DNA from: a virus
Strand: one strand, 5' to 3'
UHGV virus genome: UHGV-0171672
Length of the DNA: 31,138 nucleotides
The position numbers and the translations under genes were made by a program. Of this stretch, positions 194 to 21,545 are shown in pieces (within the stretch, counting starts at the first letter, position 1; every line of letters starts with the position of its first letter). The notes under the pieces are model-generated. The model did no database searches, had not been told where the DNA came from, and saw nothing but the letters and a program-made list of their open reading frames with translations.

Positions 194-1186
194 CTAGTCA
201 ATGGACAGTTTATGGACACTATCAGCCAGCGGATTAAAGCTAATCGCATCCTGTAAAAAGTCCGGTGAAAAATGCGCATACGTCATCGTTTGTTGAATCG
301 TGGCGTGCCCAAGGATTCGCTGTAACGTAACGATATTTCCGCCGTTCATCATGAAATGCGTGGCGAACGTGTGACGCATAACGTGAGTCGCCTGACCTTT
401 GGGTAAATCCGGTTTCACCTCCTGAAGGATATCCCGAAAACGGATGTAATCAGCCTGGTACAATAGCCCGGTTTTTCGGGTTTTTATCAACGAAAGCACC
501 GTATCAGAAACAGGAACCGCGCGGGATTTTCCATTCTTTGTGTTAAAGAACATTACGCGGTTACCAACGATATGCTCACCACGTAAGCCAGCTGCTTCCC
601 CCCACCTTGCGCCAGTGGAAAGACACAGAACAGCAACACGACGCGCATCCCCCTCGAGTCGTTCAAGCAGCCGATCAATCTCATCATCTGAAAGAAAGGC
701 CATTTCTGTATTCCTGACCTTGAGCTTACGTATTCCACGCACCGGGTTTTCGTTATGAAAAACCTCCGCATCAATCAGCGAGGTAAACATTGCAGACAAG
801 GCGCACAAATCACGATTAACACTGGAGGGCATTAATCCGGCCTGTAATTTGTCTGAACGATACCCGAGCATAAACTTTCGCGTCATCTCACTGGCGCGGG
901 GGTCCCTCATCTCACGGTTTATTTTTTCCAGCCTGACCCTGTAAGTATCCCCGTAAGGCTGATTCCGGCCATCAAGCACCCACCAGGCATCTATCAGTTC
1001 GGATAACCGACGCTGATCAGCTGGCTTGGCCTGCCACGGTTTATCGTGGAAATTCTGCAAAACATACCTTTCAAACTCCTGTGCCTTTGACTTCAGGGTA
1101 AAAATCTTACGGATCCGCTTTCCTTCCGTCCCTTGCGGTCTTACATCAACCTTATAACGCCCGTCTTTGAGTTGCTTAATCGACAT
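194..1186 (-). CDS. int: Tyrosine recombinase / phage integrase (P2 Int-like)
   Basis: ORF 194..1201; likely true start is ATG at 1186 (MSIKQLKDGRYKVDV...) preceded by GGAGGGG. N-terminus resembles P2 Int; C-terminal HxxR and H...Y catalytic motifs present. Confidence 0.9.
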   Translation of the reverse strand: MSIKQLKDGRYKVDVRPQGTEGKRIRKIFTLKSKAQEFERYVLQNFHDKPWQAKPADQRRLSELIDAWWVLDGRNQPYGDTYRVRLEKINREMRDPRASEMTRKFMLGYRSDKLQAGLMPSSVNRDLCALSAMFTSLIDAEVFHNENPVRGIRKLKVRNTEMAFLSDDEIDRLLERLEGDARRVAVLCLSTGARWGEAAGLRGEHIVGNRVMFFNTKNGKSRAVPVSDTVLSLIKTRKTGLLYQADYIRFRDILQEVKPDLPKGQATHVMRHTFATHFMMNGGNIVTLQRILGHATIQQTMTYAHFSPDFLQDAISFNPLADSVHKLSID

Positions 1187-1255: not shown

Positions 1256-1597
1256 TTAGCCAGCATTGCGACGAGATCGGGGTGATTTTTGGGTGGCTGG
1301 GATTGAATCCTGATCGTCCTCCGACTGAATGGAGCCATCAAGAGAGAGAGCCGGAGCTATCTGACCGGCAGCAGGCATTGTCTTATCTTTTATTAGCCAC
1401 ATCATGTATTTTTCAAACCGATCAACTTGGAGAACCATCTCAACAATTTTGGCTCTGGCGCTTTTTTGCCCTGATTCATAGTTCCTTATGGCAGCTAAAG
1501 ACAACCCCGTAATATCCGCAAATTCCTTTTGCGTTAGCCCTTCAGCCTTGCGTATTTGACGTAGCTTTTTTGCATAGTCTATTGACAAGATAACCAT
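1256..1597 (-). CDS. C: Immunity repressor, P2 C-like HTH protein
   Basis: HTH segment LTQKEFADITGLSLAAIRNYESGQ and the motif GQIAPAL shared with P2 C; divergent from the cox-like gene. ATG at 1597 chosen over the upstream TTG of the ORF track. Confidence 0.8.
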   Translation of the reverse strand: MVILSIDYAKKLRQIRKAEGLTQKEFADITGLSLAAIRNYESGQKSARAKIVEMVLQVDRFEKYMMWLIKDKTMPAAGQIAPALSLDGSIQSEDDQDSIPATQKSPRSRRNAG

Positions 1598-1616
1598 TTG
1601 AGTATTAACCTCTCGC

Positions 1617-1642
1617 AAAAGATACTCGTACGAGTATCTTTT
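1617..1642. promoter_or_regulatory. 26-bp perfect palindrome in the C/cox switch region (candidate operator)
   Basis: AAAAGATACTCGT|ACGAGTATCTTTT read directly from the sequence, lying between the divergent C and cox-like starts. Confidence 0.5.
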
Positions 1643-1701
1643 ATAAACCTAAACAAACCTTCATGAGGCGCGACAAGCGCACCAACGCAAGAGGATAGCA
1701 A

Positions 1702-2226
1702 ATGCGGAAGTCAATTGCCGATAAAGAGTTATCTGACACACAAGCCCTTCAGGAAAACGACAGCATCACCGAATCCGTTGGCGCGGCAAACGACGATGAA
1801 CACCAAGAGGAAAAGAAAAAACGCACCTACAAAAAAGGGGCAACCTTGCGACTGGATGGCCCGGTAGCCGGACTTTGCTCACTTGAAAAAGGGGCAGCCT
1901 ATATCGGGTTGACAAAAGCTGCATTGCGCGTGGCGCTTCAGCGAAATCAGATGCCTGGACACAAGACCCGTTCAAACCCTGAAGATGAAAATTCGGATGG
2001 CGTGTGGTGGTTTAACGCCAGAGAGTGGGACAAGCTGGCTGACGAACTACCAGAATGCGAGCCGCCAGAATGGCACAACTGGAAAAGCTACTGGACATAC
2101 GACCGACAGAAAAGAAAGTTTTCCCCGGCAAACAAAGAAGACTGCCAGACCATCAATGGAAAGCGGGTTTACACAGGAAGAAAGTCAAAACTGGAGCAAC
2201 ACCAATACAGTGGAGGCAACCAGTGA
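1702..2226 (+). CDS. Cox/Apl-like excisionase-regulator with N-terminal extension
   Basis: First gene of the rightward operon, SD AGAGGA. HTH-like GAAYIGLTKAALRVALQRNQMP followed by VWWFNAREW, parallel to the P2 Cox pattern. 174 aa is about twice P2 Cox; an internal TTG start after AAGGGG is possible. Confidence 0.6.
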   Translation: MRKSIADKELSDTQALQENDSITESVGAANDDEHQEEKKKRTYKKGATLRLDGPVAGLCSLEKGAAYIGLTKAALRVALQRNQMPGHKTRSNPEDENSDGVWWFNAREWDKLADELPECEPPEWHNWKSYWTYDRQKRKFSPANKEDCQTINGKRVYTGRKSKLEQHQYSGGNQ

Positions 2227-19591: not shown

Positions 19592-20686
19592 ATGGGAAAC
19601 CGCTTAACGCTTTCTCGCGAAGGCCGCAGCAATCTTGAGGCCTATCTTGCACGCCAGGCAGAACTGGCCGAAACCACCGTAGAACGACTGGGGAAAACCT
19701 TCAGCGTTGATCCGGCTGTTCATCAGAAGATGGAAAACGCCATCAAAGAGAGCGACGAGCTGCTGAAAAGAATCAACAGCATCGGCGTTGACGATCAGGA
19801 GGGTGAAAAAGTCCTGGTGAATACCAGCGGCCCCATCGCCAGCACCAACTCAACCAGTGACGGCGTGAAGCGACGCAATCCCGCTGACGTCTCTGATCTG
19901 GCATCGCGTCGTTATCGCTGCGAACAGGTGAACTACGACACTTTCATCAGCTACGCACAGATTGACGCGTGGAGCAACCAGAAAAACTTCCAGCAACTGC
20001 TGAGTGCACAAATCACCCGACAGATTGCACTGGACCGTATCATGATTGGCTTTAACGGTGAGTCGCACGCCATCATCTCCGATCGTTCTGCCAACCCGAA
20101 ACTTCAGGACGTTAACACCGGGTGGCTGAAACACATCCGTGAACACGCCACGACGCGTGTCGTGAAGGCAATGACGCTGACCCGTCGCGATCATGAAAAC
20201 AAACTGGTTGCAAAAGGTGACTACGGCAACGCTGACGCGATGGTTAACGACATTCGTTCTTCCGTACTGGATGAGTGGCACAAGGACGCCCCGGATCTGG
20301 TTGTTGTCATGGGCCGCAACCTGTTCAACACGCTGCGTCTGCCTATGATTAACGCCATCAGCACCACCAACCCGAACACGGAGCTGGTCGCCGGACAGCT
20401 GATTACAGCCTCCCGCACCATTGGCGCGCTGCCGACCTTCTTTGCGCCGTACTTCCCGGACGATGCCATGCTGATCACGTCGTTCAGCAACCTTTCGGTG
20501 TACTTCCAGAAAGGGTCACTGCGTCGCTTCATCCGTGAAGAGCCGGAGTACAACCGTATCGCCACCTACCAGTCCATGAACGACTGCTACGTGGTGGAAG
20601 ACTACGGCAAGTGCGCACTGATTGAGGGCATTTCTTTCGCCGGTGAAGATCCGGAAGACAAGAAAGAGGCAGAAGCACAGGCGTAA
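19592..20686 (+). CDS. N: Major capsid protein (P2 gpN-like)
   Basis: Conserved blocks such as IMIGFNGESHAIISDRSANPKLQDV and PDLVVVMGRNL match P2 N. Confidence 0.9.
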   Translation: MGNRLTLSREGRSNLEAYLARQAELAETTVERLGKTFSVDPAVHQKMENAIKESDELLKRINSIGVDDQEGEKVLVNTSGPIASTNSTSDGVKRRNPADVSDLASRRYRCEQVNYDTFISYAQIDAWSNQKNFQQLLSAQITRQIALDRIMIGFNGESHAIISDRSANPKLQDVNTGWLKHIREHATTRVVKAMTLTRRDHENKLVAKGDYGNADAMVNDIRSSVLDEWHKDAPDLVVVMGRNLFNTLRLPMINAISTTNPNTELVAGQLITASRTIGALPTFFAPYFPDDAMLITSFSNLSVYFQKGSLRRFIREEPEYNRIATYQSMNDCYVVEDYGKCALIEGISFAGEDPEDKKEAEAQA

Positions 20687-20694
20687 CGCATCAT

Positions 20695-20714
20695 GGCGGG
20701 CACATGTGCCCGCC
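20695..20714. other. 20-bp perfect palindrome between N and M
   Basis: GGCGGGCACATGTGCCCGCC immediately after the N stop. Confidence 0.5.
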
Positions 20715-20735: not shown

Positions 20736-21545
20736 ATGCTGACACCGGCACAACGATACCTTCAGCGCGCGATGGCGCATCATCGGGCTGATCCATTCAA
20801 TCGCGAAGAGCAGCGAACACGAACGGCACATGAACAGGTTCTTCACCAGTTACGCCTCGCACAGTTGCAGCTGAATGGCGTGCAGTCAAACATCGCGAAA
20901 GCGGAGCTGAAGAAGCACCTGATACCGAATTTTGAAGGCTGGATCGACGGCACACTGGCAGGCGACAGCGGACGCCAGGACGAAGTCATTACCACCATGA
21001 TGGTGTGGGCAATTGACTGCCGGGATTATCCGCTGGCACTGCGTATCGGTGAGTACGTCATTCGTCACCGGCTGGCACTGCCGGACAACTTCGGGCGCGA
21101 TTCGGCGACCGTGCTCACCGAAGAAATTGCCGAAGTTGTGCTGACAGAAGCCGCCACCAACAGCGAAACCGACTTATCCGGCTATATCCGTATGCTGGAC
21201 GAGCTGGATGCACTGGTTCACGACCAGGACATGCCGGATCAGGTTCGTGCAAAACTACATAAGGCGCGGGCATTTTCACGGCGCGCATCAGGCAGTACGG
21301 AAGACATGACTGTGTCACTTGGTCTGCTGCGTGAAGCCATGCGCATCAATCCGGCAGCGGGCGTGAAGCGTGAAATCGCCACGCTGGCCAGAAAGGTATC
21401 AAAGGTTCAGCCGGAACCGGAAAAACCGGCAGAAGAGAAAAGTAAATCGAAAGCAACATCAGGGCGCAAAAAGCCGACTACAAAAGCGACGGCCAGAAAA
21501 GCCACGAAAAAAACCGCCGCAAAACCGGCGCGCAAGGCGACCTGA
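20736..21545 (+). CDS. M: Terminase small subunit / endonuclease (P2 gpM-like)
   Basis: Matches the P2 M pattern, including the Lys/Arg/Ala/Thr-rich C-terminal tail. Confidence 0.85.
   Translation: MLTPAQRYLQRAMAHHRADPFNREEQRTRTAHEQVLHQLRLAQLQLNGVQSNIAKAELKKHLIPNFEGWIDGTLAGDSGRQDEVITTMMVWAIDCRDYPLALRIGEYVIRHRLALPDNFGRDSATVLTEEIAEVVLTEAATNSETDLSGYIRMLDELDALVHDQDMPDQVRAKLHKARAFSRRASGSTEDMTVSLGLLREAMRINPAAGVKREIATLARKVSKVQPEPEKPAEEKSKSKATSGRKKPTTKATARKATKKTAAKPARKAT

What the first reader, a model, noticed from the sequence alone, without database searches (positions are those of the whole stretch)
1617..1642. 26-bp perfect palindrome at the lysis-lysogeny switch
AAAAGATACTCGTACGAGTATCTTTT lies between the divergent repressor and cox-like genes. 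A perfect dyad this long is a strong operator candidate for a dimeric repressor. P2 C is described as binding direct repeats, so this switch may be organised differently.
Basis: partly seen in the sequence, partly recalled or inferred. Interest (0 to 1): 0.4.

Follow-up and report, generated by a model that had tools for sequence, protein, structure and literature searches.

The report
Palindromic operator of a P2-type repressor
The 26-base palindrome is real and is most likely the main DNA site where this P2-like prophage's repressor shuts off the lytic promoter, which is notable because repressors of this family have been described as binding only direct, non-palindromic repeats.

Summary
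The palindrome AAAAGATACTCGTACGAGTATCTTTT is at 1617-1642 as reported. It is the longest in the window and longer than any in 200 shuffles. It lies between a 113-aa homologue of the P2 C repressor (1256-1597, minus strand) and a distant Cox-like gene (1702-2226).

Comparative evidence points to a C operator, which I call O2:
- Two E. coli prophages (G1/2, STEC17-183) match the window exactly across cox and int. They carry a different C N-terminal domain and a different dyad at the same place, so the site tracks C, not Cox.
- A copy of the half-site (O1, 1587-1595) sits 32 bp upstream, next to a consensus -35 (TTGACA, 1582-1587). This copy changes together with the dyad arms in several repressor classes.
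- Among 89 switch regions with C homologues, 28 have a compact inverted repeat. In 19 of the 27 that also carry the -35 hexamer, the centre lies 45.5-50 bp from it.

Only an 11+2+11 dyad is conserved. The perfect 26-bp form was found only in this window.

The layout resembles phage Wphi (two sites three helical turns apart around the lytic promoter), but O2 is a full dyad. No binding or promoter mapping was done. The main rival is an RNA hairpin. I rate this a new variant of a known kind, of moderate interest.

The parts
194..1186 (-). Tyrosine integrase of the lysogenic operon, downstream of C.
   Evidence: Pfam Int_N (7.5e-28) and Phage_integrase (7.1e-20). Orthologues are annotated as phage integrase.
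1256..1597 (-). Immunity repressor C, 113 aa. It has an HTH_3 domain and its recognition helix is about residues 32-41 (LSLAAIRNYE). Residue 36 is Ala where P2 C has Thr33.
   Evidence: Matches the P2 C structure 2xcj/2l49 with E=1.4e-13, residues 9-90 against 6-87 without gaps. Pfam HTH_3 3.5e-10. 48% identical to the Wphi-type C. Residue-36 distribution in 91 homologues: T 62, S 25, A 3, N 1.
1582..1587 (+). Inferred -35 hexamer (TTGACA) of the lytic promoter Pe, lying inside codons 4-6 of C.
   Evidence: Exact consensus hexamer. P2's annotated Pe -35 likewise overlaps the start of C. TTGACA with at most one mismatch occurs next to the C start in 82 of 91 family loci. Not mapped experimentally.
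1587..1608 (.). Candidate operator O1, AAGATAACC-ATTT-GAGTATTAA. The left half (1587-1595) is a direct repeat of the left arm of the palindrome, 32 bp upstream, and overlaps the C start codon. The right half is a degenerate inverted copy (ATACTC, 6 of 9).
   Evidence: Direct repeat D2 and inverted repeat I1. AAGATAMYC occurs only four times in the window, three of them here. A half-site copy at 31-34 bp recurs in the family. Binding is inferred.
1603..1610 (+). Uncertain -10 region of Pe. Candidates are TATTAA at 1603-1608 (15-bp spacer) and TTAACC at 1605-1610 (17-bp spacer).
   Evidence: Best hexamer. The consensus promoter scan found no site in 1400-1900. The position is inferred from the -35 only.
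1609..1614 (-). Probable ribosome-binding site of C (GAGAGG on the minus strand), 11 nt before the ATG and between O1 and O2.
   Evidence: Read directly from the sequence. Conserved in the 569R5 and G1/2 types.
1617..1642 (.). The palindrome, interpreted as operator O2. The conserved core is 1618-1641, AAAGATACTCG-TA-CGAGTATCTTT. Its centre is 48 bp from the first base of the Pe -35, which would cover roughly +1 to +25 of the early transcript.
   Evidence: existence. (symmetry kept while sequence changes; tracks C). (same position in many family members).
1643..1701 (.). Conserved spacer that probably holds the lysogenic promoter Pc (minus strand), Cox-binding repeats and the cox ribosome-binding site (GAGG at 1691-1694). 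AAACC repeats lie 10 bp apart at 1645 and 1655.
   Evidence: Identical to the G1/2 type from about 1655 in 30-nt sliding windows, and 80-97% identical to the 569R5 type. The best -10-like hexamer on the C strand is TATAAA (1645 down to 1640), with no good -35 and not conserved in relatives. Role inferred by analogy with P2 (PMC1904263).
1702..2226 (+). Cox-like protein, 174 aa, first gene of the early operon. It is about twice the length of P2 Cox and has an acidic N-terminal extension of about 55 aa.
   Evidence: Pfam Phage_Cox E=1.4e-5, 25.3 bits, below the 27.5 cut-off, residues 58-129. 24% identical to P2 Cox over 54 aa. The 82%-identical orthologues are named Cox family DNA-binding protein in RefSeq. 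No PDB or NCBIfam hit.

Best explanation
The palindrome is the principal operator (O2) of the prophage's P2-type immunity repressor C.

Proposed mechanism:
- One symmetric C dimer sits on the dyad. Each recognition helix reads one arm, roughly positions 3-12 from the centre, and the central 2-4 bp are not read.
- A second dimer occupies the weaker, half-degenerate site O1 (1587-1608), 32 bp (three helical turns) upstream, on the same face of the DNA.
- O1 fills the gap between the -35 and -10 of the lytic promoter Pe. O2 covers the start of the early transcript.
- Together the two sites exclude or trap RNA polymerase, keep cox and the early operon off, and confer immunity.
- Because O2 also lies in or next to the leader of the convergent C promoter, it may contribute to C autoregulation.
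- The C N-terminal domain plus O1 plus O2 forms an exchangeable immunity cassette.

Shown here: the sequence features, the homology to P2 C, the co-variation and the positional conservation. Inferred: binding, stoichiometry, promoter positions and repression.
For: 1. C is a true P2 C homologue (E=1.4e-13, 48% identity to the Wphi-type C). P2 C is a symmetric HTH dimer whose geometry resembles that of palindrome binders (PMC2995052).

2. A natural swap exists. The G1/2 and STEC17-183 prophages are identical to the window from about 1655 to 2400 in 30-nt sliding windows, with Cox 174/174 identical. They are also nearly identical to the left of about 1340, apart from a short divergent stretch at about 1280-1310. 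They are only 40-87% identical over 1340-1650, which is the C N-terminal domain plus O1 plus the palindrome. There they carry a different dyad, ACTTCACC-ACAG-GGTGAAGT, with its own O1 (TGTTCACCA) 32 bp upstream.

3. Against the 569R5 type, O1 and the -35 are 100% conserved while the palindrome is the least conserved stretch (47-53%). Dyad symmetry is nevertheless kept through changes on both arms, C.G to A.T and T.A to C.G.

4. O1 changes together with the arms in independent classes. In L023, O1 and both arms share CATCCTC; in L026 they share CATCCTTT. L065 matches 9 of 9, 569R5 9 of 9 and L047 10 of 12 by eye (these counts were read from the sequence printouts; the scripted 9-nt-window scores there are lower). 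Mean identity peaks at an offset of 32-33 bp, and the enrichment at 31-34 bp gives Wilcoxon p=1.4e-4.

5. 28 of 89 family switch regions have a compact inverted repeat at p<=0.05 against shuffles, where about 4.5 are expected. In 19 of the 27 of these that also carry the TTGACA hexamer, the centre lies 45.5-50 bp from its first base, wherever the C start codon falls.

6. Within-type variation hits the centre and the outermost base, as expected for bases a repressor does not contact.

7. Internal arm mismatches show no excess of G.U-compatible pairs: 2 on one strand, 2 on the other and 7 other, which is the chance ratio.

8. The half-site occurs nowhere else in the window as a pair.
Against: - No protein-DNA binding, footprint or transcription start was measured.
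- The consensus promoter scan finds nothing in 1400-1900, and the Pe -10 is weak or ambiguous.
- Any palindrome also folds as RNA, here at -12.5 kcal/mol. A hairpin at the 5' end of the early transcript would sit at the same fixed position, so positional conservation does not separate the two readings.
- The characterised family members P2, P2 Hy dis and Wphi bind direct repeats and show no dyad (PMC1904268).
- The link between residue 36 and the half-site sequence is imperfect. A36 repressors occur with AACC, AATC and ACTC arms, and T36 repressors with AACC and AATC.
- In this window O1 matches the arm at only 7 of 9 positions. On its own that is not significant (p=0.16).
Confidence: 0.78

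Rival explanations
1. The palindrome acts mainly as an RNA stem-loop. It could be a 5'-terminal hairpin that stabilises the early (cox) transcript. Alternatively it could be a hairpin in the leader of the C mRNA just upstream of its ribosome-binding site, affecting stability or translation. This could coexist with operator function.
For: - The predicted hairpins are stable for their length: -12.5 kcal/mol on the plus strand (z=-5.9) and -14.5 kcal/mol on the minus strand. Relatives give -12.2 and -11.5 kcal/mol.
- Changes on both arms preserve pairing, and the variable central 2-4 nt would form the loop.
- The fixed position, about +1 to +25 of the inferred Pe transcript, suits a 5' protective hairpin.
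- Wphi-like loci, whose operators are direct repeats, also carry a long-range inverted repeat (CCCGAAAAGG...CCTTTTCGGG) just after the Pe -10.
Against: - An RNA hairpin does not explain a third half-site copy (O1) at 31-34 bp that changes together with the arms.
- Internal mismatches are not enriched for G.U-compatible pairs on either strand: 2, 2 and 7, the chance ratio.
- Natural variants carry C.A, A.G and other non-pairing positions.
- The cassette boundary in the G1/2 swap falls immediately after the dyad, so the dyad travels with the repressor's DNA-binding domain.
Confidence: 0.1
2. The palindrome is a binding site for the Cox-like protein, or for a host factor such as IHF, rather than for C.
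For: - It lies in the C-cox intergenic region, where P2 Cox is known to bind and repress Pc (PMC3936717, PMC3448106).
Against: - Prophages with an identical Cox protein (174/174; same RefSeq accession WP_001232123.1 in SCU-172 and G1/2) have different dyads.
- Cox and Apl proteins bind direct repeats spaced one helical turn apart, not dyads (PMC7498355).
- The Cox-proximal spacer at 1655-1701 is the part that stays constant with Cox.
Confidence: 0.04
3. The palindrome is a transcription terminator or attenuator, or a functionless product of quasipalindrome mutation.
For: - It has an A-run before and a T-run after a stem, which superficially resembles a bidirectional terminator.
- Both private changes of this window, G to A at 1617 and the centre change, make the palindrome more perfect. 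That is the signature of template-switch mutation at quasipalindromes. This interpretation is my inference.
Against: - No terminator-like site was found in 1400-1900. The T-run is part of the stem rather than following it, and relatives lack any T-run after the stem.
- A terminator between a promoter and its first gene in both directions would silence both operons.
- A functionless repeat would not keep its symmetry and position across repressor classes. Template switching can explain why the palindrome is perfect here, but not why the dyad exists.
Confidence: 0.03

Closest known systems
Phage Wphi C repressor and its O1/O2 operator (P2-like coliphage, immunity class III)
   Same: - The closest experimentally studied repressor: 48% identity (the P2DC1 locus carries the Wphi operator TATTGGTGAC twice, as given in PMC1904263).
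- The Pe -35 TTGACA lies at the start of C.
- O1 lies between the -35 and -10, and O2 lies just downstream of the start site.
- The sites are about three helical turns apart: 34 bp in Wphi, 32 bp here.
- Wphi C can bind a single site on its own and bends DNA (PMC1904263).
   Different: The Wphi sites are 10-bp direct repeats with no dyad partner (best compact inverted repeat not significant, p=0.53). Here the downstream site is a 24-26-bp dyad and the upstream site a partial dyad.
Phage P2 C repressor with O1/O2 (PDB 2xcj)
   Same: - Homologous protein (E=1.4e-13).
- Same gene order int-C-cox, with convergent Pe and Pc.
- Pe -35 overlapping the C start, and two repressor sites flanking the Pe -10.
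- The footprint suggests four C monomers on the operator (PMC1904263).
   Different: - The P2 sites are 8-bp non-palindromic direct repeats 22 bp apart. P2 C cannot bind one site alone (PMC1904263, PMC2995052).
- The window's C has Ala at the position of P2 C Thr33, whose alanine substitution abolishes operator binding in P2 C (PMC2995052).
P22 c2 and 434 repressor N-terminal domains on 14-18-bp palindromic operators
   Same: - Works like these: an HTH dimer on a dyad with conserved outer half-sites and a variable, uncontacted centre of about 4 bp.
- The P2 C dimer superimposes on P22 c2, with the same 26 A spacing between recognition helices (PMC2995052).
   Different: - Not the same family or switch architecture. 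There are no three tandem operators shared with a Cro protein and no C-terminal RecA-cleavable domain.
- The second regulator is a Cox-type excisionase-repressor that recognises other sites.
Phage 186 CI repressor (the other switch type among P2-like phages)
   Same: It recognises inverted repeats at face-to-face promoters in a P2-like phage (PMC1904268).
   Different: 186 CI is about twice as large, has two domains, forms wheels of dimers, uses distal sites and needs CII. The window's repressor is a 113-aa P2 C homologue.

Membership tests
P2-type C immunity repressor and switch | Small (about 100 aa) HTH repressor homologous to P2 C | tested here: met
   113 aa. PDB 2xcj/2l49 E=1.4e-13 over residues 9-90. 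Pfam HTH_3. 29-52% identity to C proteins of P2, Wphi-type, L-413C and others.
P2-type C immunity repressor and switch | Gene order int-C on one strand, divergent from cox, with about 100 bp of spacer | tested here: met
   int 194-1186 (-), C 1256-1597 (-), cox-like 1702-2226 (+), 104-nt spacer. The P2 spacer is 114 nt.
P2-type C immunity repressor and switch | Face-to-face promoters Pe and Pc, with the Pe -35 at the start of the C gene | tested here: inconclusive
   TTGACA at 1582-1587 fits the family pattern (82 of 91 loci; P2 annotation). However, the -10 is weak, Pc was not identified, and the consensus scan found nothing. Transcript mapping is needed.
P2-type C immunity repressor and switch | Two repressor sites two to three helical turns apart flanking the Pe -10 | tested here: met
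   AAGATAACC (1587-1595) and AAGATACTC (1619-1627), 32 bp apart. The same spacing recurs in the family. These are sequence features only; binding was not tested.
P2-type C immunity repressor and switch | Operator made of non-palindromic direct repeats (as stated for the seven described coliphage immunity classes) | tested here: not met
   The downstream site is a perfect 26-bp palindrome, with an 11+2+11 dyad conserved in relatives.
P2-type C immunity repressor and switch | Second regulator is a Cox-family excisionase-repressor | tested here: inconclusive
   Pfam Phage_Cox 25.3 bits, below the 27.5 cut-off. 24% identity to P2 Cox over 54 aa. No PDB or NCBIfam hit. 82%-identical orthologues are named Cox family protein in RefSeq.
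P2-type C immunity repressor and switch | Repressor is a dimer in solution and bends its operator | not testable with these tools
   Inferred only, from homology to P2 C and Wphi C (PMC1904263, PMC2995052).
186-type CI switch | Two-domain CI of about 190 aa | tested here: not met
   The repressor is 113 aa and matches P2 C rather than a CI-type protein.
Lambdoid CI/Cro switch | Tandem palindromic operators shared by the repressor and Cro | tested here: not met
   There is one full dyad plus one partial site, with no other paired copy in the window. The dyad varies with C and not with the second regulator.
Intrinsic (rho-independent) terminator | G+C-rich stem-loop followed by a T-run | tested here: not met
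   No terminator-like site in 1400-1900. The T-run is inside the stem, and relatives have no T-run after it.

The most novel reading that the evidence does not exclude
The P2 C family may be ancestrally a palindrome binder, with one symmetric dimer per dyad. On this reading, the 'direct repeats' of P2, P2 Hy dis and Wphi are what remains when each of two dyads decays to a single specific half. The window's switch would be an intermediate: O2 is still a full dyad and O1 is half-degenerate. This would resolve the published puzzle of a symmetric P2 C dimer that must bind non-symmetric DNA. It would also make dyad-bearing members such as this one the natural subjects for a first repressor-DNA co-structure in the family.
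Probability: 0.45. Interest if true: 0.55.

Novelty: new variant of a known kind. Interest (0 to 1): 0.45.

Why it matters
The P2 C repressor is a textbook oddity: a symmetric helix-turn-helix dimer said to recognise non-palindromic direct repeats. The published model needs one helix of each dimer to bind non-specifically (PMC2995052).

This prophage, and roughly a quarter to a third of the C-family switch regions sampled here, instead carry a proper dyad at the same place relative to the lytic promoter. They keep the P2/Wphi two-site layout. If C binds this dyad as a symmetric dimer, three things follow:
- The direct-repeat rule would be a feature of three studied phages rather than of the family.
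- The paradox of a symmetric dimer on asymmetric DNA would get an evolutionary explanation.
- A simpler substrate would be available for structural work.

The three natural cassettes (window type, 569R5 type, G1/2 type) share identical or near-identical flanks. They form a ready-made set for testing how immunity specificity changes, including the role of the Thr/Ala position that matches P2 C Thr33.

Tried and rejected
- **Terminator or attenuator:** rejected. The scan found none, and the T-run lies within the stem.
- **Cox binding site:** rejected, because prophages with an identical Cox have different dyads.
- **A clean specificity code between residue 36 (Ala or Thr) and arm positions 4-5:** an alignment of 91 homologues looked promising, since all three Ala-36 proteins have A-T-n-C-T arms. 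Exact-flank scans of viral and metagenome contigs then turned up intermediates: A36 with AACC/AATC arms and T36 with an AATC arm. I keep this only as a weak trend.
- **Distal operators for looping, as in phage 186:** none found. The only extra half-site (14753, minus strand) is single and at chance level.
- **Promoter prediction:** the consensus scan found no sigma-70 site. A relaxed search gives only TATTAA with a 15-bp spacer for Pe and a non-conserved TATAAA for Pc. Promoter positions therefore rest on analogy with P2's annotation.
- **Hidden dyads in P2 and Wphi operators:** none (and inspection).
- **Karlsson et al. 2006, the paper describing immunity classes I-VII:** could not be read, as it is not held. 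What those classes' operators look like is taken second-hand from PMC2995052.
- **NCBIfam:** gave no curated family above its cut-off for either protein.
- **Literature:** four searches found no description of a palindromic operator for a P2-type C repressor. The library is incomplete.
- **Not run:** structure prediction and the large protein-database searches. The PDB sequence match already settles the homology, and no available tool models protein-DNA complexes.

Full report
**Observation**

The sequence at 1617-1642 is AAAAGATACTCGTACGAGTATCTTTT, a perfect palindrome with 13-nt arms and no spacer. It is the longest perfect palindrome in the window. The next is a 20-bp one at 20695-20714. 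In 200 shuffles of the window the longest arm reached 11 and was usually 7-8.

**Context**

The window is a P2-like (Peduoviridae) prophage, only distantly similar at the DNA level to phage P88 and its relatives.
- An integrase lies to the left of the palindrome (194-1186, minus strand; Pfam Int_N and Phage_integrase).
- A 113-aa HTH_3 protein follows (1256-1597, minus strand). It matches the solved P2 C repressor (2xcj/2l49) with E=1.4e-13 over residues 9-90 without gaps. It is 48% identical to the Wphi-type C.
- To the right, a 174-aa protein (1702-2226) gives a sub-threshold Pfam Phage_Cox match (25.3 against 27.5 bits). It is 24% identical to P2 Cox over 54 residues. Its 82%-identical orthologues are called Cox family DNA-binding protein in RefSeq.

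**Anatomy of the switch**
- A consensus TTGACA lies at 1582-1587, inside codons 4-6 of C.
- In the annotated P2 genome the -35 of the lytic promoter Pe likewise overlaps the start of C. There the two C binding sites flank the Pe -10.
- TTGACA with at most one mismatch lies next to the C start in 82 of 91 family loci examined.
- Immediately after the hexamer comes AAGATAACC (1587-1595). This is a direct repeat of the palindrome's left arm AAGATACTC (1619-1627), 32 bp away (D2).
- The pattern AAGATAMYC occurs four times in the window. Three of these are here, and no shuffle reached four.
- The upstream site has the same 9-4-9 layout as the palindrome, AAGATAACC-ATTT-GAGTATTAA, with a degenerate right half. 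I call it O1 and the palindrome O2.
- The -10 of Pe is not clear. The candidates are TATTAA with a 15-bp spacer and TTAACC with a 17-bp spacer, and the consensus scan found nothing.
- Pc was not identified.

**Comparison with close relatives**

Three repressor types share this genomic backbone.

1. *569R5 / E. albertii type* (C 88% identical). It has AAAGATAACC-TTTT-GGTTATCTTT at the same place. O1 and the -35 are 100% conserved, while the palindrome is the least conserved stretch (47-53% in 30-nt windows). Two arm positions changed on both sides, so symmetry is kept.

2. *G1/2 / STEC17-183 type.* These prophages are identical to the window from about 1655 to 2400 in 30-nt sliding windows, with a Cox protein identical at 174/174. 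They are also nearly identical to the left of about 1340, apart from a short divergent stretch at about 1280-1310. Over 1340-1650 they are only 40-87% identical. There they encode a different C N-terminal domain and carry a different dyad, ACTTCACC-ACAG-GGTGAAGT, with a matching O1 (TGTTCACCA) 32 bp upstream. This natural swap shows that the dyad belongs with the repressor's DNA-binding domain and not with Cox.

3. *Window type.* Within it, ten of the eleven other loci sampled have centre GTGC or GCAC. The eleventh (L100) keeps centre GTAC but has unequal arms. All eleven have G at the position of 1617.

Exact-flank scans also found asymmetric intermediates: AAAGATAACCG-TA-CGATTATCTTT, AAAGATAATCG-TA-TGAGTATCTTT and ...GTTT-GATTATCTTT.

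The conserved unit is therefore an 11+2+11 dyad. Its outer AAAGATA and the C at position 3 are fixed, positions 4-5 drift (AC, AT, CT), and the centre is free. Both of the window's private changes make the palindrome more perfect. I read this as the mark of template-switch mutation at a quasipalindrome (inference), not as selection for a 26-bp site.

**Comparison across the family**

A scan of one genome per species returned 80 loci with C homologues.
- With the phage loci added, 28 of 89 switch regions have a compact inverted repeat that beats 95% of shuffles, where about 4.5 are expected. 23 of these are centred 29-51 nt upstream of the C start codon.
- Measured from the -35 hexamer, the centre lies at 45.5-50 bp (mode 48) in 19 of the 27 loci that have both features. 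This holds wherever the C start codon falls.
- One locus (L026, Symbiopectobacterium) has an independent perfect 26-bp palindrome at the same place.
- P2, the Wphi type, pro483 and P37 show no such repeat. This agrees with the literature, in which their operators are direct repeats 22, 26 or 34 bp apart (PMC1904268, PMC1904263).
- In the dyad-bearing loci, a copy of the half-site recurs 31-34 bp upstream. Mean identity is 0.42-0.43 at an offset of 32-33 bp against about 0.26 elsewhere, and Wilcoxon p=1.4e-4.
- That copy changes together with the arms. In L023, O1 and both arms share CATCCTC; in L026 they share CATCCTTT. L065 matches 9 of 9.

**Mechanism**

The best reading is that O2 is the main operator for a symmetric C dimer. 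O1 binds a second dimer three helical turns away on the same face of the DNA. Together they block Pe. This is the P2/Wphi logic, with a full dyad at the downstream site.

It fits what is known of P2 C:
- P2 C is a symmetric dimer with recognition helices 26 A apart, and it superimposes on the palindrome-binding P22 c2 repressor (PMC2995052).
- The P2 footprint is compatible with four monomers on the operator (PMC1904263).

Residue 36 of the window's C is Ala at the position of P2 C Thr33, whose alanine substitution abolishes operator binding (PMC2995052). Across 91 homologues this position is T 62, S 25, A 3 and N 1. The three Ala proteins all have A-T-n-C-T arms. The intermediates show that this correlation is loose.

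**Rivals**

*RNA hairpin.* An RNA hairpin at the 5' end of the early transcript, or in the C leader, is the serious rival.
- For it: the stem is stable (-12.5 kcal/mol), the free centre would be its loop, and its position suits a 5' hairpin.
- Against it: it cannot explain O1, and the internal arm mismatches show no excess of G.U-compatible pairs (2, 2 and 7, the chance ratio).
- It could still be a second function of the same sequence.

*Cox binding.* This is contradicted by the G1/2 swap.

*Terminator.* This is not supported.

**Novelty**

The held literature states that P2-type C repressors recognise direct repeats, and that all seven described coliphage immunity classes seem to do so (PMC2995052). 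Four searches found no report of a palindromic operator in this family. The primary paper on the immunity classes could not be read. I therefore class the finding as a new variant of a known kind. It is of moderate interest, chiefly because it bears on the symmetric-dimer puzzle and supplies three natural immunity cassettes for testing. Everything about binding, stoichiometry and promoters remains inferred.

Noticed in passing
window 20695-20714: The second-longest perfect palindrome in the window, GGCGGGCACATGTGCCCGCC (20 bp, G+C-rich). It lies in the 49-nt gap between two plus-strand ORFs (19592-20686 and 20736-21545). The scan does not call it a terminator because no T-run follows. It may be an intercistronic stem-loop.
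   Followed up: partly
window 1617, 1629-1630 versus loci L013-L016, L100, L101, L112, L117, L119-L122: The window's only differences from its closest relatives inside the dyad are G to A at 1617 and the change of centre from GTGC or GCAC to GTAC. Both make the palindrome perfect. GTGC and GCAC are reverse complements of each other, as if the centre flips. This looks like template-switch (quasipalindrome) mutation.
   Followed up: partly
L026 (Symbiopectobacterium MAG) and L023 (Serratia ureilytica), switch regions: L026 has an independent perfect 26-bp palindrome, AAAACATCCTTTATAAAGGATGTTTT, at the same position relative to the Pe -35. L023 has CATCCTCAATTGAGGATG. Their C proteins are the only others of 91 with Ala at the position of P2 C Thr33.
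   Followed up: partly
L007 (Wphi-type), L008 (P37), L025, L030, L033, L036, switch regions: Loci of the Wphi type lack a compact dyad. They carry a long-range inverted repeat just after the Pe -10, for example CCCGAAAAGG...CCTTTTCGGG, with 9-11-nt arms and a 12-16-nt loop that contains O2. In some (L030, P37) the two 15-nt repressor-site-like elements are in inverted rather than direct orientation. No function is known.
   Followed up: no
window 1702-2226: The Cox-like protein is 174 aa, against 91 aa for P2 Cox. It has an acidic, low-complexity N-terminal extension of about 55 aa and a basic C-terminal extension. Only residues 58-129 resemble Cox. It has no solved-structure or NCBIfam match.
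   Followed up: partly
window about 2225-2800: Immediately after cox, the window and the 569R5-type prophage become unrelated (17-47% identity). The window has a 151-aa minus-strand ORF (2311-2766) with no family match. This appears to be a variable cargo slot in the early region.
   Followed up: no
window about 199-222: Two direct repeats of ATGGACA (caATGGACAgtttATGGACActatc) lie just beyond the end of int. They resemble the P2-type integrase arm-site consensus tgTGGaCa reported in PMC3448106. In relatives the prophage lies next to dmsA.
   Followed up: no
window 1645-1659: AAACC repeats lie 10 bp apart (TAAACCTAAACAAACC) to the right of the dyad, in the part of the spacer that stays constant with Cox. 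Chuche, P88_4B11 and several Enterobacter/Cedecea loci show clearer 10-11-bp phased repeats (TAAGCC or CTAAAGCGCC) at the equivalent place. These are candidate Cox boxes.
   Followed up: no
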